A stretch of 33,600 nt of DNA, taken from UHGV virus genome UHGV-1067530; one strand, 5' to 3'. Below the pieces are notes generated by a model that saw only the letters and a program-made list of their open reading frames with translations, was not told where the DNA came from and searched no databases. This document shows positions 6,754 through 15,427 of this stretch, in pieces. Source of the stretch: a virus. Position 1 is the first letter of the stretch; every line of letters starts with the position of its first letter. The position numbers and the translations under genes are program-made.

Positions 6754-7344
6754 TTAAGCTTTGGTCTTAAGTAGGTTCTTAAGTTTTTTAAGATTCATGC
6801 TCTCATCAAACTTAAAACCAAATCCATTGACATAATCAATGAACTCGGATTTCTTACTGAGTGACAATGCGTAACTCATATCAAAGTTCTTACTTGTTTC
6901 TGCGTCTGGACTAGAGTTCACATCAAATGAAATTTCTGTAGGCTCTTGCTTACTTTTTCTCATATTATCAATTAACAAACATGTATAGTTTGCTGGATAG
7001 AAGTTTACACTACCATCAACGTAGCTGTACTTATTATTATGGATAAGGTTGGAAAATACCTTAAGGAATGTTTCTGAGTCGTGGCAAACAAGTTTGAATT
7101 GGCTGCTCTCTCCAAGCGCAACTAATGAGTACGGACTTTCACTATCAAAGTCATAGTTTGGATTTGATGCCGTCACTGTTACACGCATCAAGTTATTAGC
7201 AATAGTCTTCTGTTTAAAAGAATTTTGAACATAGTGAAGACCCCTCTCACACTGATTGACTAGCTCTTTAAGTAGGTCATTTGCATATGGTGAGTTAATT
7301 GATACAGAGCCGTCACTATTGTAATTAAAACTTACTGTTAACAT
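6754..7344 (-). CDS. hypothetical protein (196 aa)
   Basis: ORF in early-block context. Confidence 0.5.
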   Translation of the reverse strand: MLTVSFNYNSDGSVSINSPYANDLLKELVNQCERGLHYVQNSFKQKTIANNLMRVTVTASNPNYDFDSESPYSLVALGESSQFKLVCHDSETFLKVFSNLIHNNKYSYVDGSVNFYPANYTCLLIDNMRKSKQEPTEISFDVNSSPDAETSKNFDMSYALSLSKKSEFIDYVNGFGFKFDESMNLKKLKNLLKTKA

Positions 7345-7571
7345 TTTTCAGTTCTCCTGCGATTTATAATTTTGCTGCAATAGAGAAACGAAGTAAACTC
7401 ACTGGAAGAAACCACTAAGTGTTGTTCACTAGATTGAGCCATTGCCCTGAAATACATTCCAGTCAAAGCATCATAGTGACTATTCTTTCCAATTGAGGTT
7501 ATATAGCCATGACTCTTTGCAGTTTGATATAAATCTATAATATCTGCGATTTCTAATTGGGAACTACACAT
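7338..7571 (-). CDS. hypothetical protein (77 aa)
   Basis: ORF overlapping neighbours. Confidence 0.35.
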   Translation of the reverse strand: MCSSQLEIADIIDLYQTAKSHGYITSIGKNSHYDALTGMYFRAMAQSSEQHLVVSSSEFTSFLYCSKIINRRRTEKC

Positions 7572-7735
7572 AGATAATCCTCTTGTCTTCTGTAATTTTG
7601 AAAGAACAGGTACAGACCAATTTCAGAGGACGAATAGTAGATTAATTCTACCCTTTTTGATTCCTTACAGTGATTGGTATTCTTACCTTTCTTCGGTTTA
7701 TTTGATTTTCTCATTAAGTCTCCTTTGTAGAACAA
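7553..7735 (-). CDS. hypothetical basic protein (60 aa)
   Basis: Short ORF, first in the leftward block; weak support. Confidence 0.3.
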   Translation of the reverse strand: MFYKGDLMRKSNKPKKGKNTNHCKESKRVELIYYSSSEIGLYLFFQNYRRQEDYLCVVPN

Positions 7736-7814
7736 GGCAGACCTACAGCTTTAAGTAAGATGGTACAGTAATCCATACAACAAGTCAAGAACTATTGCAA
7801 GTTAAAAAAGTTGT

Positions 7815-7854
7815 TGACAAAGCACTTGACAAGGTATAGGCTTATAAATACTTA
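7815..7854 (+). promoter_or_regulatory. Putative sigma70-like promoter region (two TTGACA boxes)
   Basis: aaaaagttgTTGACA at 7815-7820 and TTGACA at 7826-7831; weak -10 candidates (TACTTA) 17 nt downstream. Confidence 0.3.
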
Positions 7855-7963
7855 GAAGATAACTTAAAAGGTTCCTCTAAAAAGGCTATTTAAACAGATA
7901 TCTTTCTGGATATCTATCTTTTATCTTAAAAGCCTTTTAAGAGGTCTTATAAGAGGCATACCA

Positions 7964-8335
7964 ATGAAAAACAGAACAAACAAAGGCCAGTTTAAAAAAG
8001 GCCAGTCTGGAAACCCATCTGGAAGACCAAAAGGCTCTCGTAACAAAAGCTCACTCGTAAAAGCTCAACTGACCATTGATAATTCTGCTGAGTTTGCTGC
8101 AAAGTTGTTTGAAGCGATTGTTACAAGGGACGCTGCTAAGCTTGCAGAGTTCGGGTTAAACACAGACGACGTAACCATCAAGAGCATGATTGAGGTCGGT
8201 AAAACTATCATGACCCACTCAGCAGGTGAGATGAAAGCAATTGCAGCAGATACTAAGAAGACTCCTGATAACAGTAGTCAGTCTCAGACAGAAAACAAAC
8301 CAACGTTCTCTGCTGTTGCAACTCTCAAAAAATAA
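7964..8335 (+). CDS. hypothetical basic protein with N-terminal GQSGNPSGRPKGS motif (DUF5681-like)
   Basis: KGQFKKGQSGNPSGRPKGSRNK motif recalled from phage DUF5681-type proteins; not verified by search. Confidence 0.5.
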   Translation: MKNRTNKGQFKKGQSGNPSGRPKGSRNKSSLVKAQLTIDNSAEFAAKLFEAIVTRDAAKLAEFGLNTDDVTIKSMIEVGKTIMTHSAGEMKAIAADTKKTPDNSSQSQTENKPTFSAVATLKK

Positions 8336-8347
8336 TTTTAAAAGATG

Positions 8348-8377
8348 TTGACAGGCTCTACAAAGTTACTCTAAAGT
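8348..8377 (+). promoter_or_regulatory. Putative promoter upstream of the vWA gene
   Basis: aaaagatgTTGACA, 18-nt spacer, TAAAGT. Confidence 0.35.
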
Positions 8378-8416
8378 CTGTCACATCAAACAACAAATGA
8401 GAGAAGAGAGTAAAAT

Positions 8417-9832
8417 ATGAGCGAATTATTTAAACATGCGCACCTTCATGCAGGTCGAACTGAAAATGGTGCTGTAAACCATACTTCATCAATGTCTGCT
8501 CTTGTAGACTTTTACAAAGCTGCTGGTTCAAGCCGTAGCAACGTAGAAATCTTACCAGACCTGTTCTACAAAGCTTTGCGTGAGGATGTTGATGTTGCAG
8601 TTCGTATTTTACTGCATATGCGAGATGTACGAGAAGGTATTGGTGAGCGTAAAGCCTTCAGAACTGTTTTGCTTCAAGCAATTGAAGATAAAGTTTTAGA
8701 GCCTACACAGGTTCTTCGCATTATGGATAAGATTGCAGAACTTGGTCGTTTTGATGACTTCAAAATCTTCGTAGGTACTCGTTTCGAGACAGATGCCTTC
8801 AAACATTTAGAAGCAGCATTACTAGACCCTGCAACAGCAGGTTTGGCAGCCAAGTGGCTACCACGAGTCAAACCACGTCATAAGCAGTTTGTAAAACGTT
8901 TCTGTAAGTTTGCCAACTTGAGTGAGAAAGAGTATCGCACACTGTTGTCTGCGCTCTCTGATACAGTTGAGCAAAAAATCTCTGCTAATGAGTTTGGCAA
9001 GATTGACTACAGTAAGATTCCTTCACTTGCTGCTGCACGTTACCAAAAACTGTTTAACCGCAAAGATGGAGAACGCTACAAAGCTTACATCGAGTCCTTA
9101 TCAAAGGGTGAGACTAAGATTAATGCTGGTGCTGTTTACCCATACGATGTGATTAAGTCTGTTAAGTATGGTAATGCAGATGTTGCTAATGAGCAGTGGA
9201 AAGCACTACCAAACTGGATGGCAGAGGGTGAAAACATTCTCTGTATGTCTGATGTTTCACGTTCAATGTCTTGGGTGAATTTTGGCTCCATTACTACTCT
9301 GGATATTGGTGTATCACTTGCATTGTATGTAGCAGAACGCAATACAGGTTGCTTTAAAAATGAGTTAATGGTTTACTCAACAAACCCTCACTTCATCGAA
9401 CTGAGTGGTGATTTACGAAACCGTCATCGTCAGGTGATGCGGCACGTTGAATATGGCTCAACTAACTTACAAGCAGCTTTTGACCGTATTCTTGAGACAG
9501 GTAAAAGAAATAACTTGACTCAGAAAGATATGCCAAGTAAGCTTATCATCTTCTCAGATATGGAGTTCAATCAGGTTGATGGAGCTAACGGTCGCACAAA
9601 CTTTGAAGCAATCCAGAGTAAGTACAAGAAAGCTGGATACGAAATGCCACAACTGGTATTCTGGTACTTAGCAAACCGTAATGGTACTTGCGAAGTATCT
9701 GTTAAGGATAACGGTGTAGCAATGGTATCTGGTTTCTCTCCAGCCACTTTAAAAGCTCTGCTTGGTGGTGAGAAGTTTGACCCTATCAGCGTAATGCTCA
9801 AAGCAGTAATGATTGACCGTTATATCTGGTAA
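8417..9832 (+). CDS. vWA-domain protein with N-terminal alpha-helical domain; possibly Ro60/TROVE-like (DUF2828-type)
   Basis: MIDAS motif in ILCMSDVSRSMS (DxSxS), downstream YGSTNL (T) and LIIFSDMEF (D) at vWA-typical spacing; N-terminal ~270 aa has no motif I recognise; the TROVE assignment is inference. Confidence 0.55.
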   Translation: MSELFKHAHLHAGRTENGAVNHTSSMSALVDFYKAAGSSRSNVEILPDLFYKALREDVDVAVRILLHMRDVREGIGERKAFRTVLLQAIEDKVLEPTQVLRIMDKIAELGRFDDFKIFVGTRFETDAFKHLEAALLDPATAGLAAKWLPRVKPRHKQFVKRFCKFANLSEKEYRTLLSALSDTVEQKISANEFGKIDYSKIPSLAAARYQKLFNRKDGERYKAYIESLSKGETKINAGAVYPYDVIKSVKYGNADVANEQWKALPNWMAEGENILCMSDVSRSMSWVNFGSITTLDIGVSLALYVAERNTGCFKNELMVYSTNPHFIELSGDLRNRHRQVMRHVEYGSTNLQAAFDRILETGKRNNLTQKDMPSKLIIFSDMEFNQVDGANGRTNFEAIQSKYKKAGYEMPQLVFWYLANRNGTCEVSVKDNGVAMVSGFSPATLKALLGGEKFDPISVMLKAVMIDRYIW

Positions 9833-9850
9833 AAAGTTTTAAAAAGGGTA

Positions 9851-9879
9851 TTGACAATGTGTTTGATACCCTTTAATAT
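9851..9879 (+). promoter_or_regulatory. Putative sigma70-like promoter heading the tRNA array
   Basis: TTGACA (9851-9856), 17-nt spacer, TAATAT (9874-9879); the -35 sits inside the inverted repeat GGGTAT...ATACCC. Confidence 0.45.
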
Positions 9880-9941
9880 GTTCTACATAGAAACGAAACG
9901 AGAGCTTTTCTAAGATACTGAAAAATATTTTAAAAAAGTTC

Positions 9942-9971
9942 TTGACAATCACTAAAAAATAATGTTAAAGT
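9942..9971 (+). promoter_or_regulatory. Putative second promoter upstream of tRNA-Pro
   Basis: aaaaaagttcTTGACA, 18-nt spacer, TAAAGT; same architecture as the 8348 promoter. Confidence 0.35.
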
Positions 9972-9997
9972 GGTTACATAGAGTTTGAAAAGTTTAT

Positions 9998-10074
9998 CTC
10001 TGTTTAGCTCAGCTTGGTAGAGCGTTCCGTTTGGGGCGGTAAGGCCGGAGGTTCAAGTCCTCCAACAGAGACCA
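9998..10074 (+). tRNA. tRNA-Pro (anticodon TGG)
   Basis: Acceptor CTCTGTT/AACAGAG, D-arm GCTC/GAGC, anticodon loop TTTGGGG, T-arm GGAGG-TTCAAGT-CCTCC, encoded CCA. Confidence 0.8.
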
Positions 10075-10081
10075 AATTAAT

Positions 10082-10159
10082 GTTCCAGTAGACAAAATGG
10101 TATAGTCACCACTCTTTCAAAGTGGATATTTGAGGGTTCAAATCCCTTCTGGAACGCCA
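10082..10159 (+). tRNA. tRNA-Glu (anticodon TTC)
   Basis: Acceptor GTTCCAG/CTGGAAC, anticodon stem CCACT/AGTGG, loop CTTTCAA, T-loop TTCAAAT, CCA. Confidence 0.8.
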
Positions 10160-10162
10160 GTT

Positions 10163-10239
10163 TTGACAGAAGACCAATTACAGCAAACTTAATCTTATTC
10201 ATCTGAAGGTAAATCGGACAAAGAAGAGATTTGGTCTGG
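10163..10239 (+). repeat. Inverted-repeat-bounded element, copy 1 (TTGACAGAAGACC-AA-TTACAGCAA ... TTGGTCTGG)
   Basis: 5' box CAGAAGACC + TTACAGCAA, 3' box GGTCTGG; termini AGACCAA/TTGGTCT are complementary. Confidence 0.6.
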
Positions 10240-10251
10240 TCATTAAGAATT

Positions 10252-10327
10252 GCGGGTATAGAGAAAGGGCGTCTCACATGTCTCATTAGCATGGTATCGG
10301 CAGGTTCGACTCCTGCACCCGCCTCCA
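10252..10327 (+). tRNA. tRNA-Met/Ile2-like (anticodon CAT), slightly irregular acceptor/T-stem register
   Basis: Acceptor GCGGGTA, D-arm GAGA/TCTC, anticodon stem CATGT/GCATG, loop CTCATTA, T-arm GCAGG-TTCGACT-CCTGC; 3' strand ACCCGCC pairs with a 1-nt offset. Confidence 0.5.
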
Positions 10328-10329
10328 AA

Positions 10330-10397
10330 TTTACAGAAGACCGTTTACAGCAATATTTATTAAATTTTTAGCGGAAAAATTGAAAGATGTGGTCTGG
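10330..10397 (+). repeat. Inverted-repeat-bounded element, copy 2 (TTTACAGAAGACCGTTTACAGCAA ... GGTCTGG)
   Basis: 5' 27 nt identical to copy 4; internal AT-rich hairpin AATTTTT/AAAAATT. Confidence 0.6.
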
Positions 10398-10410
10398 TAA
10401 TACTAAACAT

Positions 10411-10487
10411 GGTTAGGAAGCACATAAGGTATGTGCGGTCGCCTGTTAAGCGAATGGCACAGGGTTCGAATCCCTGACTAACCGCCA
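10411..10487 (+). tRNA. tRNA-Asn (anticodon GTT)
   Basis: Acceptor GGTTAGG/ACTAACC, D-arm GCAC/GTGC, anticodon loop CTGTTAA, T-arm CAGGG-TTCGAAT-CCCTG, discriminator G, CCA. Confidence 0.75.
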
Positions 10488-10556
10488 AATTTAGGAGAGA
10501 AGCGATTGCTCACCGATTTGTAAGGTGCAAGTCCTTAGCCTGAATAGAAATTAAAT

Positions 10557-10644
10557 GTGTCGTTATCCCGTAGATGGTAGCGGTGGGGACTGTAAATCCC
10601 TTGTCATTGAGACTCGGTAGGTTCGACTCCTACACGGCACACCA
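10557..10644 (+). tRNA. tRNA-Tyr (anticodon GTA), long variable arm
   Basis: Acceptor GTGTCGT/ACGGCAC, anticodon loop CTGTAAA, ~15-nt variable arm, T-arm GTAGG-TTCGACT-CCTAC, CCA. Confidence 0.7.
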
Positions 10645-10649
10645 ACAAA

Positions 10650-10727
10650 GGTTATGTAGTTTAATTTGGTTAAAATACTCCCCTGTCACGGGAGATGATG
10701 AGGGTTCAAATCCCTTCGTAACCGCCA
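10650..10727 (+). tRNA. tRNA-Asp (anticodon GTC)
   Basis: Acceptor GGTTATG/CGTAACC, anticodon stem CTCCC/GGGAG, loop CTGTCAC, T-loop TTCAAAT, CCA. Confidence 0.75.
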
Positions 10728-10788
10728 ATTTTGAGAGGGCTATTTAGCCCCTCCCTTAAAGAGTTCTTACGAGTATTCTTTAAAGGAG

Positions 10789-10862
10789 CAGAAGACCAAA
10801 TACAGCAAGTTACTTAAAATTTCAAGCCAATTTAATTTTGAAAAATTTAAAACTTGGTCTGG
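10789..10862 (+). repeat. Inverted-repeat-bounded element, copy 3 (CAGAAGACC-AAA-TACAGCAA ... TTGGTCTGG)
   Basis: Same terminal boxes; interior is a long AT-rich imperfect hairpin (CAAGTTACTTAAAATTTCAA / TTGAAAAATTTAAAACTTG). Confidence 0.6.
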
Positions 10863-10871
10863 CTCAACAAA

Positions 10872-11006
10872 TTTACAGAAGACCGTTTACAGCAAAACTT
10901 AAACAATCTATTTCTCGGTAAAGAAAAGGAGAAGGTTCGATTCCTTCACTCGGCAGGTGTCGAGTTGGTGTAATGGTAGCACTTAAGATGATAAACAACG
11001 GTCTGG
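10872..11006 (+). repeat. Inverted-repeat-bounded element, copy 4 (TTTACAGAAGACCGTT ... AACGGTCTGG), containing tRNA-like fragments
   Basis: 8-bp terminal complementarity AGACCGTT/AACGGTCT; interior holds a T-arm (GAAGG-TTCGATT-CCTTC) followed by a D-arm-like segment. Confidence 0.6.
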
Positions 11007-11007
11007 T

Positions 11008-11151
11008 AATTATCTTTGTAGATAAGTTATTAAGCTTACCTGTGAGTATGCGACCACAAAGGGTGAAAGGGTAAATTCTAGATTTAAACCCAAAAAGGCA
11101 CATCGCTACAGACCTTAAGCAAGTCTGGGTAGCTTATCTACAAAGATAATT
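11008..11151 (+). repeat. 19-bp perfect inverted repeat (AATTATCTTTGTAGATAAG / CTTATCTACAAAGATAATT) flanking 106 nt
   Basis: Read directly: 11008-11026 is the exact reverse complement of 11133-11151; the interior contains CAGACC...GTCTGG. Confidence 0.7.
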
Positions 11152-11155
11152 TAAT

Positions 11156-11231
11156 GGAAGTGTAGCAGAATGGTGATGCGGCAGACTTTTAATCTGACAG
11201 GCGATGGGTTCGAATCCCTCCACTTCTACCA
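11156..11231 (+). tRNA. tRNA-Lys (anticodon TTT)
   Basis: Acceptor GGAAGTG/CACTTCT (G1-U72 wobble), anticodon loop CTTTTAA, T-loop TTCGAAT, discriminator A, CCA. Confidence 0.7.
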
Positions 11232-11235
11232 ATAT

Positions 11236-11312
11236 GGTTCAGTCGCAGATAAGGTAATGCAAGGGTCTCATAAGCCCTATGAATGTGGGTTCGATTCCCA
11301 TCTGAACCTCCA
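11236..11312 (+). tRNA. tRNA-Met or Ile2 (anticodon CAT)
   Basis: Acceptor GGTTCAG/CTGAACC, anticodon stem AGGGT/GCCCT, loop CTCATAA, T-arm TGGG-TTCGATT-CCCA, CCA. Confidence 0.75.
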
Positions 11313-11314
11313 AT

Positions 11315-11389
11315 TGTGGGTTAGCATAAATGGTAATGCAAACGGCTGATAACCGTTAGAAGAGGGTTCGATACCCTCACCTACAACCA
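11315..11389 (+). tRNA. tRNA-Ile (anticodon GAT)
   Basis: Acceptor TGTGGGT/ACCTACA, D-arm GCA/TGC, anticodon stem AACGG/CCGTT, loop CTGATAA, T-arm GAGGG-TTCGATA-CCCTC, CCA. Confidence 0.75.
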
Positions 11390-11404
11390 ATTTCAATAAA
11401 GTTG

Positions 11405-11433
11405 TTGACATTGAGATGTGACTACTTTATAGT
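11405..11433 (+). promoter_or_regulatory. Putative sigma70-like promoter inside the tRNA array
   Basis: aaagttgTTGACA (11405-11410), 17-nt spacer, TATAGT (11428-11433). Confidence 0.45.
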
Positions 11434-11439
11434 AACTAA

Positions 11440-11726
11440 AATACTTCAGAATATGTATAATTCAAACACCAATACATGAGCGTTAGACGTAACACAATGT
11501 GGGGAAATTTGTTGTACATATTCTGAATAGTTTTCGTTGCGTAGCGTCTATTTTGCAAATTTAAAATAAATGCAAACGACAATGTTTTTCTGGCAGTAGC
11601 TTGATAGGCTAAACACCAGTGAGGTCTTCCAATCCCTCATCAAAGAATTTGGCGTACTAGCCCACGGTATGATTAATAAGGTGGGCATCTTTAAGGGCTT
11701 TCTAAGAGAGTCTTTAAAGATAATTA
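11440..11726 (+). ncRNA. Candidate structured non-coding RNA region (ORF-free, multiple hairpins)
   Basis: No ORF of 60 aa or more; 13-bp perfect inverted repeat TTCAGAATATGTA (11445-11457) / TACATATTCTGAA (11515-11527); hairpins GCCCAC...GTGGGC, TGAGG...CCTCA, TTTGCA...TGCAAA; sits downstream of the 11405 promoter. Confidence 0.35.
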
Positions 11727-11808
11727 CGGGGCGTATCTCAGCGGTCTTCTAAACCGCCGTTAACCGAGTAAGTGGAGTATGCGGGTTCGAGTCCTGCCGC
11801 CTCGACCA
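11727..11808 (+). tRNA. tRNA-like, Arg(TCT)-type anticodon arm, atypical (no canonical D-arm, 23-nt segment before the T-arm)
   Basis: Acceptor CGGGGCG/CGCCTCG, anticodon stem GCGGT/ACCGC with loop CTTCTAA, T-arm GCGGG-TTCGAGT-CCTGC, discriminator A, CCA; the D-arm 3' strand is not identifiable. Confidence 0.45.
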
Positions 11809-11950
11809 ATTAGTTAGCAGATTACTTAGACGACCTAAGCGGGTCTTCCTGTAGGGAGGTGGTCTGTATCTCATGTTTTCCAGAACATGTAAATAATCTG
11901 AGAAGGGGCTTTACAGTGTTGAGATAATACGGTAAGCTTCGAATTATAGT

Positions 11951-12033
11951 ATGGGACGATGTTAAGACTCTAAGGCATGAGCAACGGCTTCCAACACCGT
12001 TTCAAAGGGGTTCAACTCCTCCGTCCCATGCCA
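11951..12033 (+). tRNA. tRNA-like, Trp(CCA)-type anticodon loop, atypical (7 extra nt in the D region)
   Basis: Acceptor ATGGGAC/GTCCCAT perfect, hairpin ACGGC-TTCCAAC-ACCGT, T-arm AGGGG-TTCAACT-CCTCC, discriminator G, CCA; D region is 26 nt. Confidence 0.4.
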
Positions 12034-12046
12034 AAGTCTTATTAGG

Positions 12047-12134
12047 GGTAGGTAGCGGCTAATGGTAGCCAAACTGTCTTGAAAACAGTTGCCACTGTAG
12101 AGATACGGTGAGGGTTCGACTCCTTTACTTACCG
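12047..12134 (+). tRNA. tRNA-Ser (anticodon TGA), long variable arm; CCA not encoded
   Basis: Acceptor GGTAGGT/ACTTACC, anticodon stem ACTGT/ACAGT, loop CTTGAAA, ~20-nt variable arm, T-arm GAGGG-TTCGACT-CCTTT, discriminator G. Confidence 0.7.
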
Positions 12135-12137
12135 CCT

Positions 12138-12391
12138 AATAAGATTTAAAGCCAAGCTTCATTCGGATGTCGCTTTGGTATCCCGCGTGTATTGTCGTAC
12201 ACACTGATAAAACACCTAGTAGGTGTCACGGAGAAGAGATAATATCAAGCTCTCCAAAGGTTCTAGTCACCGGATTAAACAAGACTATGCAAAGACCTTT
12301 TTAGGTCTTTTTAGAGGGCTTCTAAGGTTATTACAGCTTGTTGTGGAACCTTGTTGCTTAGGTTCTTAGAAGTTCTCTAAAAAGATTTAAT
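12138..12391 (+). ncRNA. Candidate structured non-coding region (hairpins, terminator-like stem, long CTTCTAAG/CTTAGAAG hairpin)
   Basis: ORF-free; hairpins GTGTA...TACAC, ACACCTA...TAGGTGT, GGAGA...TCTCC; AAAGACC-TTTTT-AGGTCTTT followed by a T-run (about 12288-12312); inverted repeat CTTCTAAG (12320) / CTTAGAAG (12365). Confidence 0.3.
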
Positions 12392-12469
12392 GGGAGATTG
12401 ACGGTAATTGGTAAACCTACCATCCTTAGAAGTTGGTGTTTGAGGGTTCGAATCCCTTGTCTCCTACCA
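12392..12469 (+). tRNA. tRNA with Leu-type anticodon TAG but short (5-nt) variable loop
   Basis: Acceptor GGGAGAT/GTCTCCT, anticodon stem CCATC/GTTGG (one U-U), loop CTTAGAA, T-arm GAGGG-TTCGAAT-CCCTT, discriminator A, CCA. Confidence 0.55.
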
Positions 12470-12476
12470 AATTAAT

Positions 12477-12552
12477 GCAGGTGTAGCAAAATGGTTATGC
12501 GGCTGACTCTTAATCAGTAAGACGATGGGTTCAATTCCCTCCACCTGTACCA
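12477..12552 (+). tRNA. tRNA-Lys (anticodon CTT)
   Basis: Acceptor GCAGGTG/CACCTGT, anticodon stem GCTGA/TCAGT, loop CTCTTAA, T-loop TTCAATT, discriminator A, CCA; close paralog of the 11156 tRNA. Confidence 0.7.
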
Positions 12553-12558
12553 GACATT

Positions 12559-12634
12559 TGGGTCATAGTTTATATGGTTAAAATTCGAGTTTTGCAAACT
12601 TGGGAACTGAGTTCAATTCTCAGTGACTCCACCA
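12559..12634 (+). tRNA. tRNA-Ala (anticodon TGC)
   Basis: G3-U70 wobble present in the acceptor (TGGGTCA/TGACTCC), anticodon stem CGAGT/ACTTG, loop TTTGCAA, T-arm CTGAG-TTCAATT-CTCAG, discriminator A, CCA; 1-72 is unpaired (T/C). Confidence 0.7.
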
Positions 12635-12640
12635 ATTAGT

Positions 12641-12715
12641 GCATCCATAGTTTAAACGGGAAAATTACAGTCTTCCAAACTGAGGTTGAGGGTTCGATTC
12701 CCTCTGGATGCTCCA
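12641..12715 (+). tRNA. tRNA-Gly (anticodon TCC)
   Basis: Acceptor GCATCCA/TGGATGC perfect, anticodon loop CTTCCAA, T-arm GAGGG-TTCGATT-CCCTC, CCA. Confidence 0.75.
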
Positions 12716-12721
12716 AACAAT

Positions 12722-12798
12722 GCTGCTTTCGTATAATTGGCTATTACACATCCCTTGTAAGGATGGAAATGCAGGTTCGAGTCCTGTGAGCAGCACCA
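12722..12798 (+). tRNA. tRNA-Thr (anticodon TGT)
   Basis: Acceptor GCTGCTT/GAGCAGC, anticodon stem CATCC/GGATG, loop CTTGTAA, T-arm GCAGG-TTCGAGT-CCTGT, discriminator A, CCA. Confidence 0.8.
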
Positions 12799-12799
12799 A

Positions 12800-12893
12800 T
12801 TCAGAGGTCAAGTGAAAGACCGCTGGTGTCAACTGAAGACCGTAACAAATTCCACGGAGTTGAGTTAGCGGCACAACTTCAGACCTCTTTCAC
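12800..12893 (+). repeat. Repeat/palindrome-rich spacer related to the CAGAAGACC element family
   Basis: CTGAAGACCGTAACA (12836-) resembles the 5' box; AGAGGTC...GACCTCT and CTGAAG...CTTCAG inverted repeats. Confidence 0.4.
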
Positions 12894-12968
12894 ACTCGCT
12901 TAGTTTATATGGTAAAACATCACCCTTACAAGATGAAGAAAAAGGTTCAAGTCCTTTAGTGAGTACCA
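12894..12968 (+). tRNA. tRNA-Val (anticodon TAC)
   Basis: Acceptor ACTCGCT/AGTGAGT, D-stem GTTT, anticodon loop CTTACAA, T-arm AAAGG-TTCAAGT-CCTTT, discriminator A, CCA. Confidence 0.65.
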
Positions 12969-12969
12969 T

Positions 12970-13047
12970 GTTCCAGTATCCCAATTGGCAGAGGATGCAA
13001 GCTCAAACCTTGTATTAGTGACGGTTCGAATCCGTCTTGGAACACCA
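12970..13047 (+). tRNA. tRNA with Leu-type anticodon CAA but short (6-nt) variable loop
   Basis: Acceptor GTTCCAG/TTGGAAC, D-loop AATTGGCAGAG, anticodon stem TGCAAG/CTTGTA with loop CTCAAAC, T-arm GACGG-TTCGAAT-CCGTC, discriminator A, CCA. Confidence 0.55.
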
Positions 13048-13065
13048 ATTTAAAGAGGCTATTTA

Positions 13066-13623
13066 ATGAGATATTTGAAGTATGCTTCATGGATTTTCTT
13101 AGCTTTACTAGACCCAATTGCAGCAATCCTAGCAGTTATCTTAGCACCTTTCGTAGTTCCATTCTACAGTGAGAAGAAAGGACATCTACCTTTTGGATTC
13201 AGATGGATGGAGACCTATGACAACCCGATTGATGGTGACGAAGGTCACGTTAAAAGATGGGCTAAGATTAGAAAGATTGGTAAGCTGGGTGTCTACATGC
13301 AGAGAGTTGGGTGGCTCTGGAGAAACAAAGCTTATAACTTCTCTTACCATGTATTAGGAAGAGATGTAAAAGATGTTACTAAGTGGAGAGGTAATATCAA
13401 CGTAAGTTCTGACCCTGAAGATAATCAGACTGGTTATCTCCTAATGTGGAACAACAATGCTTGGGGATTATTCGCTTTTATTCCGTCAATTAAAGTCTTT
13501 GGTAAACAGTTTTACTGGAGAATTTATGTTGGATGGAAACTAAAAAGTGTTGTCCCAGAAGAAAGAGCATTCTCAAGGGAAAGAGTTATGTTGGCATTCT
13601 TTATTCATCCACTGAGAAAGTAA
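13066..13623 (+). CDS. hypothetical membrane protein (185 aa) embedded in the tRNA array
   Basis: ORF with RBS aaagagg upstream; N-terminal hydrophobic helix WIFLALLDPIAAILAVILAPFVVPF; Trp/Arg-rich remainder. Confidence 0.6.
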   Translation: MRYLKYASWIFLALLDPIAAILAVILAPFVVPFYSEKKGHLPFGFRWMETYDNPIDGDEGHVKRWAKIRKIGKLGVYMQRVGWLWRNKAYNFSYHVLGRDVKDVTKWRGNINVSSDPEDNQTGYLLMWNNNAWGLFAFIPSIKVFGKQFYWRIYVGWKLKSVVPEERAFSRERVMLAFFIHPLRK

Positions 13624-13631
13624 AGATTTAA

Positions 13632-13707
13632 AGGGGATTAGTTTACAAGGTTAAAACCTCGGTCTTTGAAATCGAAGAAGTTGGTTCAATTCCAACATCC
13701 CCCGCCA
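13632..13707 (+). tRNA. tRNA-Gln (anticodon TTG)
   Basis: Acceptor AGGGGAT/ATCCCCC with unpaired 1-72, discriminator G, anticodon stem TCGGT/ATCGA, loop CTTTGAA, T-arm GTTGG-TTCAATT-CCAAC, CCA. Confidence 0.7.
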
Positions 13708-13709
13708 AT

Positions 13710-13788
13710 GCTCCATTACTCCAATTGGCAGAGAGGCCAGACTTAAAATCTGTGTTATGTATCGGTTCGAATCCGATATGGAGTACCA
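13710..13788 (+). tRNA. tRNA with Leu-type anticodon TAA but short (7-nt) variable loop
   Basis: Acceptor GCTCCAT/ATGGAGT, D-loop AATTGGCAGAG, anticodon stem CCAGA/TCTGT, loop CTTAAAA, T-arm ATCGG-TTCGAAT-CCGAT, discriminator A, CCA. Confidence 0.55.
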
Positions 13789-13793
13789 ATTTT

Positions 13794-13869
13794 AGCGGTA
13801 TAGCATAACTGGCAATGCAGCAGTCTCTGAAGCTGTCCTATTAAGGTTCAAATCCTTATGCCGCTGCCA
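13794..13869 (+). tRNA. tRNA-Gln (anticodon CTG)
   Basis: Acceptor AGCGGTA/TGCCGCT, D-arm GCAT/ATGC, anticodon loop CTCTGAA, T-arm TAAGG-TTCAAAT-CCTTA, discriminator G, CCA. Confidence 0.7.
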
Positions 13870-13900
13870 CTTCTAAGGGTTCTTACGAGAGTCCTTAAAT

Positions 13901-13976
13901 GTGGCCTTATCATAAACGGTAATGACCCATGCTGTGAACATGGTCTATACGGGTTCAAATCCCGTAGGTCACCCCA
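13901..13976 (+). tRNA. tRNA-His (anticodon GTG)
   Basis: Acceptor GTGGCCT/AGGTCAC, D-arm TCAT/ATGA, anticodon stem CCATG/CATGG, loop CTGTGAA, T-arm ACGGG-TTCAAAT-CCCGT, discriminator C, CCA; position -1 is T, not G. Confidence 0.8.
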
Positions 13977-13981
13977 ATTTA

Positions 13982-14058
13982 TAGTCCAAGTAGCTTATAT
14001 GGTTAAAGCGCGTGTCTGAAAAACATGAGAAGAGGGTTCAAATCCCACTGGACTACCA
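13982..14058 (+). tRNA. tRNA-Phe (anticodon GAA), acceptor register slightly irregular
   Basis: D-arm GCTT/AAGC, anticodon stem CGTGT/ACATG, loop CTGAAAA, T-loop TTCAAAT; acceptor TAGTCCA/TGGACTA pairs perfectly but leaves a 4-nt linker before the D-stem. Confidence 0.6.
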
Positions 14059-14074
14059 ATTTCAAAGGTGCTTA

Positions 14075-14809
14075 ATGAAAGAGATGACAGGACAAGGTAA
14101 GGAGATTTTTAATCTCTTAAAAACCGGTAAAGGGTTTTCTAACCCACTTATTACTGGTGCAGCAGTTCTCGGTGGAACCGTAGCTGCCTCTACATCACTT
14201 GTAAGCTCTATTAGCTCTGTAACAGACCCGACAATGAATGAGAAACTTGTTGCTGCTGGACTTACAACAGTCCTTCTAAACAGCTTTACAACAAGCCTGA
14301 CAAGCACTACAGCAACTACTAAGACCCTAACAGACTATGGTCAAAAGTCTATTGATGAGTTTTCATCACGTATGCAGGTAGCAAAGGGGTATTCCAATGT
14401 TATGGGTGCAGCAGGAGAACAAGTTGGTTGTACACCATTCAGTGGTATTATGGGTGTTGCTACAGAGTATGGTCAAAAAGCTATTGACATGATTAACAGC
14501 ACACTAGACAGTGTTAACGGTGTGTTAAGTGACTTACAAGACGCTATTGATAAGGGTCTTGATACTGTTTCTGATTTAGCTAATCAAGCTGTTAGCAAGA
14601 TTAATGAAGGTATCTCAAAGATTACAGCTTATGCAGATGAAGTTGTGCAGATGATTGAAGAAGAAGCTGCCCTTATTGCAGAGTACCTTAAAACGAATAT
14701 CAATGGGTTCTTAGCAGGTATCTTACCAGACTGGTTTGATGATGCTCGCAAAACTGGTGTAATCGACACTATTGCAACACCAGAAATGAAGAACGCATTA
14801 CAGAAATAA
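14075..14809 (+). CDS. hypothetical Ser/Thr-rich protein (244 aa)
   Basis: The ORF track starts at 14012 inside tRNA-Phe; first ATG with an upstream aaagg RBS is 14075 (MKEMTGQ...); S/T-rich N-half, helical C-half. Confidence 0.55.
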   Translation: MKEMTGQGKEIFNLLKTGKGFSNPLITGAAVLGGTVAASTSLVSSISSVTDPTMNEKLVAAGLTTVLLNSFTTSLTSTTATTKTLTDYGQKSIDEFSSRMQVAKGYSNVMGAAGEQVGCTPFSGIMGVATEYGQKAIDMINSTLDSVNGVLSDLQDAIDKGLDTVSDLANQAVSKINEGISKITAYADEVVQMIEEEAALIAEYLKTNINGFLAGILPDWFDDARKTGVIDTIATPEMKNALQK

Positions 14810-14810
14810 T

Positions 14811-14903
14811 GGAAGATTAACCCTAAAAGGTAAGGGAGCAGTTTGCTAAACTGCCAGTAGCTGAGAAATCGGTGTACCAGTTCAAGTCTGGTATCTTCCT
14901 CCA
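14811..14903 (+). tRNA. tRNA-Ser (anticodon GCT), long variable arm
   Basis: Acceptor GGAAGAT/ATCTTCC perfect, D-stem CCC/GGG, anticodon stem GCAGT/ACTGC, loop TTGCTAA, ~20-nt variable arm, T-arm ACCAG-TTCAAGT-CTGGT, CCA. Confidence 0.8.
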
Positions 14904-14907
14904 ATCT

Positions 14908-14983
14908 GAATCCGTGACAGAAATGGATATGTGCCTGTCTGCAAAACAGGTTTATAAGGGTTCAAGTCCCTTCGGATTCTCCA
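14908..14983 (+). tRNA. tRNA-Cys (anticodon GCA)
   Basis: Acceptor GAATCCG/CGGATTC perfect, anticodon stem CCTGT/ACAGG, loop CTGCAAA, T-arm AAGGG-TTCAAGT-CCCTT, discriminator T, CCA. Confidence 0.8.
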
Positions 14984-15020
14984 AGTTATTTTACTCTCTC
15001 TCAATTAAAATAATAATAAT

Positions 15021-15080
15021 GCCCTGCTATAAGTATTCTTCCTTTCGCTACCGAAGAGTATTTTTAGACAGGGCTTTTTT
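15021..15080 (+). terminator. Putative intrinsic terminator closing the tRNA array
   Basis: Outer stem GCCCTG (15021-15026) / CAGGGC (15069-15074) enclosing an inner hairpin, followed by TTTTTT. Confidence 0.45.
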
Positions 15081-15145
15081 ACAGAGTTATACTTTATAGG
15101 AAGACTTATACAGTATGTCTCTGACGTACATTGTGGTTTCTCCTT

Positions 15146-15169
15146 GACGGTCTCTGTGCCGTCTTTTTT
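15146..15169 (+). terminator. Putative intrinsic terminator or attenuator upstream of the packaging operon
   Basis: Stem GACGG/CCGTC with loop tctctgtg, followed by TTTTTT. Confidence 0.45.
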
Positions 15170-15205
15170 AAGGGGAAACAAGATTTATTATTTGGAGAAA
15201 ACATA

Positions 15206-15406
15206 ATGAGCGAGAACGTTTATAAAGAACTTTATGAAGCTAACAAGAAGTTAGAGTTTATGCAGAATACTATCATGGCAATTGCAGACAGATTATCTGT
15301 AGCAACAGGCATTGATATTAAAGAAGCATCTATGGATGCACTTCTTGATGCTGTTGATGCAAAGTTCGAAGTTAAGAAAGAAGAGACTGCGACAGACTCT
15401 GAATAA
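15206..15406 (+). CDS. hypothetical small protein (66 aa) immediately upstream of terminase; small terminase subunit not established
   Basis: ATG at 15206 preceded by RBS ggagaaaa; the ORF track's upstream extension from 15131 overlaps the terminator. Confidence 0.45.
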   Translation: MSENVYKELYEANKKLEFMQNTIMAIADRLSVATGIDIKEASMDALLDAVDAKFEVKKEETATDSE

Positions 15407-15427
15407 TTCTATTTGCGGAGGCGCTTA

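What the first reader, a model, noticed from the sequence alone, without database searches (positions are those of the whole stretch)
8417..9832. vWA (MIDAS) protein with a helical N-domain encoded directly upstream of the tRNA array: possible Ro60/TROVE-like RNA-binding module
The C-terminal half carries a complete MIDAS signature (DVSRSM, then GSTN, then IIFSDME) at vWA-typical spacing. The N-terminal ~270 aa has no motif I recognise. An N-terminal helical domain followed by a vWA domain is the Ro60/TROVE architecture (Ro60 binds tRNA-like Y RNAs), and DUF2828-type proteins share it. The gene's terminator and promoter region runs straight into a 26-gene tRNA array with ORF-free structured RNA stretches. 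This may be an RNA quality-control, repair or protection module coupled to the phage tRNAs.
Basis: partly seen in the sequence, partly recalled or inferred. Interest (0 to 1): 0.65.

Follow-up and report, generated by a model that had tools for sequence, protein, structure and literature searches.

The report
Phage Ro60-like protein with Y-like RNAs
The gene encodes a ring-shaped Ro60-like RNA-binding protein already reported (in a 97%-identical ortholog) to disarm a bacterial anti-phage nuclease, and the "empty" spacers of the tRNA array next to it hold four copies of an apparently undescribed small structured RNA that accompanies this protein family in phages and bacteria.

Summary

This part is not new. 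The protein is 97% identical to Bas63 gp130, which the PhageMaP preprint describes as Ro60-like, upstream of the tRNAs, and a counter to the Ppl defence nuclease. Databases already call it "RNA-binding" or "Ro-like".

What appears new is an RNA. Four spacers of the tRNA array (10167-10243, 10334-10399, 10789-10866, 10876-11010) carry an element made of a 7-8 bp covarying closing helix, then tt-ACAGCAA, then a variable core. The same design sits beside DUF2828 genes in myco-, Listeria and Staphylococcus phages, metagenomic phages and Clostridia. In Clostridia it lies in WYL/WCX - RNA - DUF2828 - RtcB operons and includes a tRNA-like long form. ACAGCAA is enriched 10-100-fold within 600 nt of the gene, on the gene strand only. 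No Rfam family matches.

Best reading: a second, divergent Ro60-type RNP with its own Y-RNA-like partners, used by the phage for counter-defence.

The parts
8348..8377 (+). Promoter-like site (TTGACA-18-TAAAGT) 40 nt upstream of the start codon
   Evidence: Consensus scan, 10/12 match. Sequence read. Not tested functionally.
8417..9832 (+). CDS for a 471-aa Ro60-fold protein (DUF2828 + DUF7788; PHROG 850); ortholog of Bas63 gp130 and Felix O1 ORF42
8417..9211 (+). N-terminal beta segment plus all-helical (HEAT-like) ring domain, aa 1-265, with invariant TENG, RDxRxGxGER, GRxxD and KW motifs
9236..9808 (+). C-terminal vWA domain (aa 274-464) of the Ro60 type. MIDAS residues are D279/S281/S283 (9251-9265), T349 (9461-9463) and D381 (9557-9559).
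   Evidence: PF25043 hit at aa 274-455. MIDAS residues invariant. hhalign against TROVE/vWA_Ro60 proteins gives 89% probability, E 2e-6, with shared VYPYDV/VHPINV, DVSGSM and VSGF motifs.
9837..9971 (+). Two promoter-like sites sharing a TTTTAAAA-N6-TTGACA motif (9837-9879 and 9928-9971) plus a hairpin (9843-9874) between the gene and the first tRNA
9998..14983 (+). Co-oriented tRNA array (24 by ARAGORN, 25 with the Rfam hit at 11727-11805) in which the RNA elements are embedded
10167..10243 (+). Y-like RNA element, copy 1: AGACCAA-tt-ACAGCAA-44 nt-TTGGTCT. It fills the tRNA-Glu/tRNA-Met spacer.
   Evidence: Repeat family D4/D5. Helix. R1 18.3 bits full-length. R2 70.3 bits.
10334..10399 (+). 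Y-like RNA element, copy 2: AGACCGT-tt-ACAGCAA-35 nt-GTGGTCT (two G-U pairs here; ACGGTCT in Felix O1, Bas63 and Moogle). It fills the tRNA-Met/tRNA-Asn spacer.
   Evidence: R1 19.6 bits. R2 83.6 bits.
10789..10866 (+). Y-like RNA element, copy 3: AGACCAA-at-ACAGCAA-45 nt-TTGGTCT
   Evidence: R1 15.6 bits. R2 66.7 bits.
10876..11010 (+). Y-like RNA element, copy 4 (long form): 8-bp helix AGACCGTT/AACGGTCT, t-ACAGCAA, and a 101-nt multibranch core with a T-arm-like hairpin GAAGG-UUCGAUU-CCUUC
   Evidence: MFE -34.4 kcal/mol, z -3.03. R2 39.8 bits, E 2.8e-6, although this copy was not in the training set. R1 16.8 bits.
7964..8335 (+). Upstream co-oriented small ORF (123 aa, DUF5681, PHROG 4114). 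It is syntenic with the Ro-like gene in Felix O1, Moogle and P778. Context only; function unknown.

Best explanation
The window encodes a compact Ro60-type ribonucleoprotein module that the phage uses against host defence.

The protein (8417-9832) is a divergent Ro60. It has a helical ring closed by a vWA/MIDAS domain. The four helix+ACAGCAA elements in the first inter-tRNA spacers are its Y-RNA-like partners.

Proposed sequence of events:
1. The gene is transcribed from its own sigma-70-like promoter. The array is transcribed from the two promoters that follow. This is read from sequence and not tested.
2. Host tRNA-processing enzymes cut out the flanking tRNAs and so release the spacer elements as discrete RNAs of about 65-135 nt. 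This is inferred.
3. The protein binds the conserved base of the closing helix together with the unpaired ACAGCAA. This is inferred from the Ro60/Y RNA paradigm and from strict gene-RNA co-occurrence across phyla.
4. The protein neutralises host nucleases. For the 97%-identical Bas63 gp130 this has been shown: deleting it sensitises the phage to Ppl, and the protein alone rescues T7. Ppl is described as an ssDNA 3'-5' exonuclease triggered by 3'-OH ends.
5. How it does so is inferred. The most economical idea is that the ring's central cavity, which in Ro60 accepts single-stranded 3' ends, caps or sequesters such ends, or that the MIDAS face binds the nuclease. The RNAs would gate or tether the protein, as Y RNAs do for Ro60.

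In bacteria and in Listeria phages the same protein-RNA pair sits next to RtcB. The ancestral context is therefore RNA-end repair or quality control.

For: vWA homology to the Ro60 vWA: hhalign probability 89%, E 2e-6. MIDAS residues are invariant.

Orthology to Bas63 gp130: 97% identity and identical synteny. The published phenotype is, and the Ppl mechanism.

RNA elements in the window:
- Four copies form a repeat family.
- On a set chosen by homology, the closing helix is paired in 100% of 56 cells, and 4 of 7 pairs show compensatory changes. None of 500 shuffles reaches the covariation score, and slid registers give only 18-39% pairing.
- A model built from three copies plus orthologs finds the fourth copy and nothing else in the 33.6 kb on either strand.
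- All four copies are kept in Bas63, Felix O1 and Moogle.

Association of the RNA with the protein family:
- The bare 7-mer ACAGCAA occurs at 0.67-0.89 per kb (phages) and 2.47 per kb (bacteria) within 600 nt of the gene on the gene strand. On the opposite strand it occurs at 0.02-0.10 per kb, and it is at background farther away.
- It is present in 41 of 81 phage loci and 63 of 80 bacterial loci.
- An enclosing helix of at least 7 bp is found for 56 of 96 and 98 of 172 motifs, against 12 and 32 in a displaced-window control.
- Tandem copies with unrelated helix sequences flank the gene in Rumpelstiltskin, List-36 and 6ec, which have no tRNAs between the elements and the gene.
- The Clostridial long form is tRNA-like, and 8 of its 20 pairs covary. 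A model of it detects the four window copies as full-length matches.

Repair context: RtcB lies directly downstream in 20 of 80 bacterial loci, WYL/WCX regulators lie upstream, and RtcB is nearby in List-36.
Against: No experiment shows that these RNAs are expressed as discrete species or bind the protein.

gp130 alone counters Ppl for T7 in E. coli, where the Felix-type RNAs are absent. The RNAs are therefore dispensable for at least that activity.

The TROVE sequence model does not match, and the N-domain is linked to Ro60 by predicted structure only.

Rfam's YrlA and Y_RNA models do not hit the elements.

The three short copies are AT-rich, and their folding energy is not better than shuffles (z -0.3 to -0.75). 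Support for them rests on covariation and co-occurrence.

About half of the phage loci show no ACAGCAA within 600 nt, and Vibrio phage D481 shows none in 4 kb.

Ppl acts on DNA, so an RNA-centred mechanism is not obviously required.
Confidence: 0.62

Rival explanations
1. Protein-only anti-defence factor. The Ro60-like protein inhibits Ppl (and perhaps other nucleases) directly, by protein-protein contact through its MIDAS face or by capping DNA 3' ends. The neighbouring ACAGCAA elements play no part in this. They could be cis-regulatory sites through which the protein controls its own or the array's expression, or processing signals.
For: gp130 expressed alone from a plasmid, or inserted into T7, restores plaquing on Ppl cells. 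MIDAS residues are invariant, and MIDAS sites classically bind an acidic residue of a protein ligand (established knowledge of vWA domains). Elements lie in the 5' leader or 3' trailer of the gene in many lineages, as autoregulatory sites would. The short copies have weak thermodynamic stability.
Against: In the window the elements are separated from the gene by promoters and tRNAs, at +348 to +1057. That placement is awkward for cis-regulation of the gene. Long forms carry tRNA-like D and T arms, which is typical of stable trans-acting Y RNAs such as YrlA. Multiple tandem copies with different helices but an invariant bulge resemble a family of RNA ligands.
Confidence: 0.22
2. RNA repair/quality-control scaffold for tRNAs. 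The RNP recognises damaged or misfolded phage or host tRNAs, for example after cleavage by host anticodon nucleases. It then hands them to RtcB/PNK-type repair enzymes or to exonucleases, or its tRNA-like RNAs act as decoys for anticodon nucleases. The anti-Ppl effect would be secondary.
For: The DUF2828 gene is followed directly by RtcB in 20 of 80 bacterial loci. RNA ligase or kinase-like genes occur in others. RtcB and an HD phosphohydrolase lie nearby in List-36. tRNA adjacency is enriched. The long-form RNAs mimic tRNA. The canonical rsr-yrlBA-rtcBA operon responds to cleaved tRNAs, and a decoy role for YrlA has been proposed. Bas63 also encodes a polynucleotide kinase.
Against: No RtcB or RNA ligase was seen among the ORFs inspected here (about 7000-17000), nor in the syntenic Felix O1 stretch. 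The ORFs in the rest of the 33.6-kb window were not annotated. The only measured phenotype concerns a DNA exonuclease. Bas63 tRNAs were mostly non-essential on the laboratory hosts tested.
Confidence: 0.13
3. The spacer elements are generic tRNA-operon processing or spacer hairpins, or decayed tRNA remnants. Their resemblance to the Clostridial RNA is coincidental.
For: They sit exactly between tRNAs. The array also contains degenerate T-arm remnants (repeat family D1 at 10524-10554 and 12009-12039). The short copies fold weakly.
Against: The same helix+ACAGCAA design flanks DUF2828 genes where no tRNA is nearby: Rumpelstiltskin, 6ec and the large IMG/VR cluster. The motif is at background density more than 1.5 kb from the gene, even in loci rich in tRNAs. 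Helices covary. The TROVE-type control locus has no convincing element, only a 6-bp GC-rich match at +527.
Confidence: 0.03

Closest known systems
Bas63 (Escherichia phage JohannRWettstein) gp130, the anti-Ppl counter-defence protein (PhageMaP preprint, bioRxiv 10.1101/2024.10.10.617714)
   Different: The host range of the present phage is Salmonella (99.9% identical to phage Mushroom), and anti-Ppl activity is not shown for it. The authors suggested that some annotated tRNAs might be Y RNAs. The evidence here points instead to four unannotated spacer elements, two of which are overlaid in Bas63 by spurious minus-strand 'hypothetical protein' calls.
Ro60/Rsr with Y RNAs (TROVE PF05731 + vWA_Ro60 PF25045), including phage versions: Thermus phage phiLo phiRo60 with Yrl1/Yrl2, and cluster C mycobacteriophages with YrlA
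   Same: The overall fold is the same: a helical ring closed by a MIDAS-bearing vWA. The vWA is homologous at profile level. Co-oriented small structured RNAs with a closing helix and a conserved unpaired motif are encoded next to the gene. Some forms are tRNA-like, as YrlA is. The family is linked to RtcB operons in bacteria. phiRo60 is likewise proposed to blunt a host nuclease, PNPase.
   Different: There is no TROVE sequence signature. The protein is about 60-80 residues shorter than cellular Ro60. The RNA partners match neither Rfam Y_RNA nor YrlA, although YrlA is detected in the positive control McGee. The conserved RNA motif is ACAGCAA next to the helix, rather than the motif reported for YrlA-type Y RNAs. 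There are up to 4-7 RNA copies per locus. The bacterial regulators are of WYL/WCX type rather than RtcR.
DUF2828/DUF7788 family (Pfam PF11443/PF25043; PHROG 850 'RNA-binding protein'; SEA-PHAGES 'Ro-like RNA binding protein', e.g. LeBron gp53, Rumpelstiltskin gp54)
   Same: This is direct membership. Both Pfam domains score above their cut-offs, and PHROG 850 matches full-length at E 1.6e-182. The same architecture is found in 710 phage records.
   Different: None at the protein level. The databases give only a name inferred from remote similarity. No partner RNA is annotated in any record examined.
Small stable RNAs encoded inside phage tRNA clusters (T4 species 1/2 RNAs, from the author's own knowledge) and the large ornate ROOL/GOLLD RNAs that neighbour phage tRNAs
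   Same: These are non-tRNA structured RNAs interleaved with phage tRNA genes. A ROOL RNA lies about 1 kb from the DUF2828 gene in Listeria phage List-36.
   Different: There is no sequence or structure relation. ROOL/GOLLD RNAs are about 600 nt long. The present elements are 65-135 nt and track the DUF2828 gene rather than tRNAs.

Membership tests
DUF2828/DUF7788 (PHROG 850) | PF11443 and PF25043 both above Pfam gathering score; full-length match to PHROG 850 | tested here: met
   PF11443 scores 101.3 bits (cut-off 29). PF25043 scores 147.6 bits (cut-off 27.1). PHROG 850 matches at E 1.6e-182 over residues 1-471.
Ro60/TROVE | Fold: alpha-helical (HEAT-like) ring closed by a C-terminal vWA domain | tested here: met
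Ro60/TROVE | TROVE domain sequence signature (PF05731) | tested here: not met
   There is no PF05731 hit at E <= 1. A family HMM finds no Ro60 chain in the PDB at E <= 10. hhalign against a TROVE alignment does not align the N-domain.
Ro60/TROVE | Ro60-type vWA with an intact MIDAS | tested here: met
   hhalign covers A1 columns 245-452 against A2 columns 317-535 at probability 89%, E 2e-6, with shared flanking motifs. D279, S281, S283, T349 and D381 are invariant.
Ro60/TROVE | Adjacent, co-oriented Y RNA of a described class (Rfam Y_RNA RF00019 or YrlA RF02553) | tested here: not met
   There is no hit at E <= 10 in window 7300-15400, and none in 13 other DUF2828 loci. The positive control worked: YrlA is found at L089:240-317 next to the TROVE-type McGee gp233.
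Ro60/TROVE | Adjacent, co-oriented small RNA with a closing helix plus a conserved unpaired motif (stem-bulge-stem logic), some copies tRNA-like | tested here: met
   There are four copies in the window. The association is family-wide. The Clostridial long form is tRNA-like with covariation. Window copy 4 has a T-arm-like hairpin only.
Ro60/TROVE | Binds Y RNA on the outer ring surface and single-stranded 3' ends in the central cavity | not testable with these tools
   This needs EMSA/CLIP and a structure.
Ro60/TROVE | Genomic linkage to RtcB RNA-repair operons (bacterial members) | tested here: met
   RtcB (PF01139, E 2e-57) lies directly downstream (median gap 71 nt) in 20 of 80 bacterial DUF2828 loci. 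It is also nearby in Listeria phage List-36. It is not present in the part of the window that was inspected.
Anti-Ppl counter-defence proteins (Bas63 gp130) | Orthology to gp130 | tested here: met
   97% identity with no gaps and identical synteny.
Anti-Ppl counter-defence proteins (Bas63 gp130) | Relieves Ppl-mediated restriction | not testable with these tools
   Shown only for Bas63 gp130 in E. coli.
Generic vWA/MIDAS proteins | DxSxS...T...D metal-ion-dependent adhesion site in a Rossmann-like alpha/beta domain | tested here: met

The most novel reading that the evidence does not exclude
DUF2828-type proteins and the helix+ACAGCAA RNAs form a second, ancient and widespread Ro60-like RNP system, with several RNA isoforms per locus and a tRNA-like long form. 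It spans Gram-negative, Gram-positive and actinobacterial phages and Clostridial/Chloroflexi RtcB operons, and has gone unrecognised because neither part matches the TROVE or Y-RNA models. In Felix O1-type phages the RNAs are produced by tRNA processing of the array. The RNP protects phage nucleic-acid 3' ends (or tRNAs) from host defence nucleases such as Ppl.
Probability: 0.45. Interest if true: 0.8.

Novelty: new variant of a known kind. Interest (0 to 1): 0.66.

Why it matters
The protein half of the finding is already in the literature and in annotation pipelines, so on its own it would be ordinary.

The RNA half matters for three reasons.

1. It gives the anti-Ppl protein gp130 (Felix O1 ORF42) concrete candidate RNA ligands. 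Four exist in Bas63 itself, which is the experimental system. That makes the open question of how a Ro60-like protein defeats a DNA exonuclease directly testable.

2. It extends the Ro60/Y RNA paradigm to a sequence-unrelated family. This family is far more common in phages (710 of 50,697 phage records) than canonical TROVE proteins were thought to be. It also has an invariant 7-nt recognition motif that can be mutated.

3. It reassigns 'empty' spacers of a classical phage tRNA array, conserved in more than 230 sequenced Felix-type phages used for Salmonella typing and biocontrol, to a defined RNA family. It also links them to Clostridial WYL/WCX-RtcB repair operons of the gut microbiota.

Tried and rejected
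- **Sequence searches of the PDB.** Neither the single protein nor the family profile found any Ro60. Only the fold comparison shows the relation.
- **NCBIfam.** Nothing useful.
- **Rfam, at gathering and permissive thresholds.** Over the window and 13 other loci it gave no Y_RNA or YrlA. The weak tmRNA-like hits at 11332-11808 are explained by a tRNA that ARAGORN missed.
- **A universal protein partner in phage loci.** None was found. ClpP, DnaJ, Mom, RNase HII, DprA and HNH neighbours are lineage-specific.
- **The hypothesis that the annotated tRNAs are the Y RNAs.** The Clostridial model R1 matches them only over the D/anticodon/T core, as ordinary tRNAs. Full-length matches fall in the spacers.
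- **MAFFT + RNAalifold on 24 divergent elements.** This predicted no pairs because the 3' strands were out of register. It was replaced by a homology-selected alignment and by displaced-window and strand controls.
- **My first loose helix scan.** Stems of at least 5 bp produced many chance hits inside coding regions, so it was tightened.
- **Reciprocal detection with the Ounavirinae-only model R2.** It is weak in other lineages (7 hits, 5 of them beside the gene), because the helices share no sequence.
- **Literature.** The Burroughs & Aravind 2016 NAR paper on RNA repair systems and the supplements of the 2021 jumbo-phage paper are not held. I therefore could not check whether DUF2828 was already merged with TROVE there, or whether any associated RNA was noted. 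PhageMaP says nothing about Bas63 g137/g138, which overlie copies 3 and 4.
Full report
**Observation.** The window is a Felix O1-type myovirus, 99.9% identical over this gene to Salmonella phage Mushroom and 99.3% to Felix O1, where the gene is ORF42. The MIDAS motif is complete. Its five coordinating residues (D279, S281, S283, T349, D381) are invariant in 60 homologs that are only 41-88% identical to the query. A co-oriented tRNA array starts 165 nt after the stop codon. ARAGORN finds 24 tRNAs and Rfam adds one more at 11727-11805, so I could not reproduce the count of 26. Between the gene and the array lie two promoter-like sites that share a TTTTAAAA-N6-TTGACA motif, and a hairpin that is at best a weak terminator. 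A further promoter-like site precedes the gene.

**What the protein is.** Pfam assigns DUF2828 (E 7e-29) plus DUF7788 (E 4e-43). PHROG 850, labelled 'RNA-binding protein', matches end to end at E 1.6e-182. Sequence methods do not connect it to Ro60. The TROVE model does not hit, and neither the protein nor a 60-sequence family profile finds any Ro60 chain in the PDB.

As a positive control I took the canonical TROVE + vWA_Ro60 protein of mycobacteriophage McGee and built a TROVE alignment. Profile-profile comparison with it gives 89% probability (E 2e-6). The match covers only the last ring helix and the vWA, with shared VYPYDV/VHPINV, DVSGSM and VSGF motifs. The protein therefore has the Ro60 fold and a Ro60-type vWA. 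It fails the sequence definition of a TROVE protein, so I file it as a member of DUF2828/DUF7788 that works like Ro60.

**What was already known.** The family occurs in 710 of 50,697 phage records: Felixounavirus, cluster L mycobacteriophages, KVP40-like vibriophages, Listeria P100-like phages, and Staphylococcus, Campylobacter, Enterococcus, Bacillus and jumbo phages. RefSeq names it 'RNA-binding protein', some submitters 'vWFA protein', and SEA-PHAGES 'Ro-like RNA binding protein'. LeBron gp53, a cluster L1 mycobacteriophage protein that carries the same SEA-PHAGES name and has the same length (472 aa), is moderately toxic when overexpressed. I did not retrieve its sequence, so its membership of the family is inferred from the cluster L members that I did test.

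**Genomic associations.** I examined 75 non-Felix IMG/VR loci.
- 19 loci have a tRNA within 1 kb of the gene, and every tRNA found is co-oriented with it.
- On contigs of at least 75 kb, 8 are adjacent, where a generous null expects 2.5 (P about 0.004).
- 8 of 14 protein lineages include an adjacent case.
- About half of the loci have no tRNA within 10 kb. The link to tRNAs is real but partial.
- No protein partner recurs in phages.

Bacterial assemblies gave a sharper picture.
- In 20 of 80 loci, mostly Clostridia, the gene is followed after a median of 71 nt by RtcB.
- It is preceded by WYL- or WCX-domain regulators.
- 26 of 80 loci have a co-oriented 'tRNA' within 1 kb. Several of these have implausible anticodons.

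This mirrors the rsr-yrlBA-rtcBA operon of Salmonella. Listeria phage List-36 has tRNAs, the gene, an HD phosphohydrolase and RtcB in a row.

**The RNA.** The odd 'tRNAs' of the RtcB-linked loci are a conserved RNA of about 100 nt. It has a 7-bp closing helix (AAAGGCNC...GNGCCTT), an unpaired ACAGCAA directly after the 5' strand, a D arm, a short covarying stem and a canonical T arm. Eight of its 20 pairs show compensatory changes. Rfam's YrlA model does not match it, although that model does find the Y RNA beside the TROVE-type McGee gene.

A covariance model of this RNA (R1) matched the window's tRNAs only over their D/anticodon/T core. It gave full-length matches in four ORF-free spacers. 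Those spacers are a repeat family with the same layout:
- Copy 1, 10167-10243: AGACCAA-tt-ACAGCAA-44 nt-TTGGTCT
- Copy 2, 10334-10399: AGACCGT-tt-ACAGCAA-35 nt-GTGGTCT
- Copy 3, 10789-10866: AGACCAA-at-ACAGCAA-45 nt-TTGGTCT
- Copy 4, 10876-11010: AGACCGTT-t-ACAGCAA-101 nt-AACGGTCT

Copies 1 and 2 fill the spacers between tRNA-Glu, tRNA-Met and tRNA-Asn. Copy 4 folds well (z -3.0) into a multibranch core with a T-arm-like hairpin. The AT-rich short copies do not fold better than shuffles.

The helix is supported by covariation on a set chosen by sequence homology, not by pairing. All 56 cells are paired and 4 of 7 pairs have compensatory changes. These include two full swaps in Yersinia phage P778 (GGACTGT/ACAGTCC), whose protein is only 53% identical. 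None of 500 shuffles reaches the covariation score, and slid registers give 18-39% pairing. A model built from three copies and their orthologs (R2) recovers copy 4 at E 3e-6. It finds nothing else in the 33.6-kb window on either strand. Bas63, Felix O1 and Moogle each keep all four copies.

**Is the RNA tied to the protein or to the tRNAs?** It is tied to the protein. With no structural requirement, the 7-mer ACAGCAA was counted within 600 nt of the gene on the gene strand, with these results:
- In phages it occurs at 0.67 per kb upstream and 0.89 per kb downstream, against 0.02-0.10 per kb on the opposite strand.
- In bacteria it occurs at 2.47 per kb upstream, against 0.02 per kb on the opposite strand.
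- It falls to background beyond 1.5 kb.
- 41 of 81 phage loci and 63 of 80 bacterial loci carry it.
- A helix of at least 7 bp encloses 56 of 96 and 98 of 172 motifs, against 12 and 32 in a displaced-window control.
- Strict helix+motif elements number 125/29/42 (gene strand / opposite strand / shuffled) in IMG/VR loci, 16/2/5 in annotated phages, and 186/29/35 in bacteria.

Phages with no tRNA between the elements and the gene have tandem copies, each with a different helix:
- Rumpelstiltskin at +50, +111 and +245, in a gap left unannotated.
- Listeria List-36 at -330, -241 and -172.
- Staphylococcus 6ec at +29, +106 and +178.

The TROVE-type control locus has no convincing element, only a 6-bp GC-rich match at +527. 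No Rfam 15 family matches any of these elements. No deposited Felix-type record annotates them, although the region is conserved in about 233 genomes. In Bas63, copies 3 and 4 are overlaid by minus-strand 'hypothetical proteins'.

**Mechanism.**
- Shown: the fold (by prediction), the invariant MIDAS, orthology to an anti-Ppl protein, the existence and covariation of the RNA helix, and the gene-RNA co-occurrence.
- Inferred: that tRNA processing releases the RNAs; that the protein binds the helix base plus ACAGCAA as Ro60 binds Y RNA; and that the ring or the MIDAS face neutralises Ppl. For the last point, capping single-stranded 3' ends in the central cavity is attractive, because Ro60's cavity accepts 3' ends and Ppl is triggered by 3'-OH ends.

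gp130 alone rescues T7, so the RNAs are not needed for that activity. They may instead gate, tether or stabilise the protein, or serve the ancestral RtcB-linked repair role. I give the RNP reading 0.62, a protein-only inhibitor with cis-acting elements 0.22, a tRNA repair/decoy role as the main function 0.13, and coincidental spacer hairpins 0.03.

**Novelty and caveats.** The finding as handed to me (a Ro60-like vWA protein upstream of the tRNAs) is already known. The partner RNA class, and the parallel with Clostridial WYL/WCX-RNA-DUF2828-RtcB operons, appear undescribed in Rfam 15 and in the searchable literature. I could not read Burroughs & Aravind 2016, which may already have linked DUF2828 to TROVE. 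I therefore rate the whole as a new variant of a known kind, with interest 0.66.

Noticed in passing
L084 (Listeria phage List-36, NC_024364) 2426-2977: A full-length ROOL RNA match (RF03087, 91.5 bits against gathering score 99.1, E 3.8e-17). It lies between tRNAs, about 1 kb upstream of the DUF2828 gene and its three ACAGCAA elements, with RtcB 1.3 kb downstream. It is not annotated in the record.
   Followed up: no
L031, L039, L042, L054, L065 (5-7 kb downstream of the gene), L033 (upstream), L102: Several metagenomic phage and bacterial loci carry a tmRNA gene on the same strand as the DUF2828 gene (ARAGORN).
   Followed up: no
window 11727-11805: A tRNA missed by ARAGORN but found by Rfam (31.7 bits). 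It corresponds to the tRNA-Arg (AGA) annotated in Bas63. Weak tmRNA-like Rfam hits at 11332-11808 seem to be due to it.
   Followed up: partly
window 10524-10554 and 12009-12039: T-arm/acceptor-like remnants (GGTGCAAGTCC..., GGTTCAACTCC...CCA) in spacers where no tRNA is called. They are probably decayed tRNA genes. The second lies in a block conserved with Yersinia phage P778 (window 11953-12026).
   Followed up: no
window 11390-11726 and 12137-12391: Further ORF-free stretches of the array. The first folds well (z about -5 with mononucleotide shuffles). They contain no ACAGCAA element and no Rfam match, and their content is unexplained.
   Followed up: no
window 11390-13050 compared with L001 (Felix O1) 11913-14609: Felix O1 carries three HNH homing endonuclease genes (ORF44, 45, 47) inside the tRNA array that are absent from this window. 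This is relevant because Ppl is said to be triggered by 3'-OH ends made by homing endonucleases.
   Followed up: no
L087 (Yersinia phage vB_YenM_P778, PP693300) 8851-14365: About 28 tRNA genes are detected by Rfam, but none is annotated in the GenBank record. Instead several tiny 'hypothetical proteins' are called across them.
   Followed up: no
window 7964-8335: The DUF5681 small protein directly upstream has a GNPSGRPKG-type N-terminus and sits where Staphylococcus phage 6ec has its small terminase (terS - Ro-like gene - ... - tRNA - terL). It may be the Felix O1 small terminase, in which case the Ro-like gene plus the tRNA/Y-like array would be an insert between terS and terL.
   Followed up: no
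L163 377-1532; also L168, L154, L159, L167, L126: Clostridial loci carry 4-7 tandem helix+ACAGCAA elements upstream of the DUF2828-RtcB pair, with the tRNA-like long form nearest the gene. The upstream regulators are WYL/WCX proteins rather than RtcR.
   Followed up: partly
L119 and L128 (Chloroflexi MAG contigs): The DUF2828 gene sits inside an array of about 25 co-oriented tRNAs on contigs assigned to bacteria, with an AGGTTCCTT-ACAGCAA element just upstream. This may be a prophage or a mis-binned phage.
   Followed up: no
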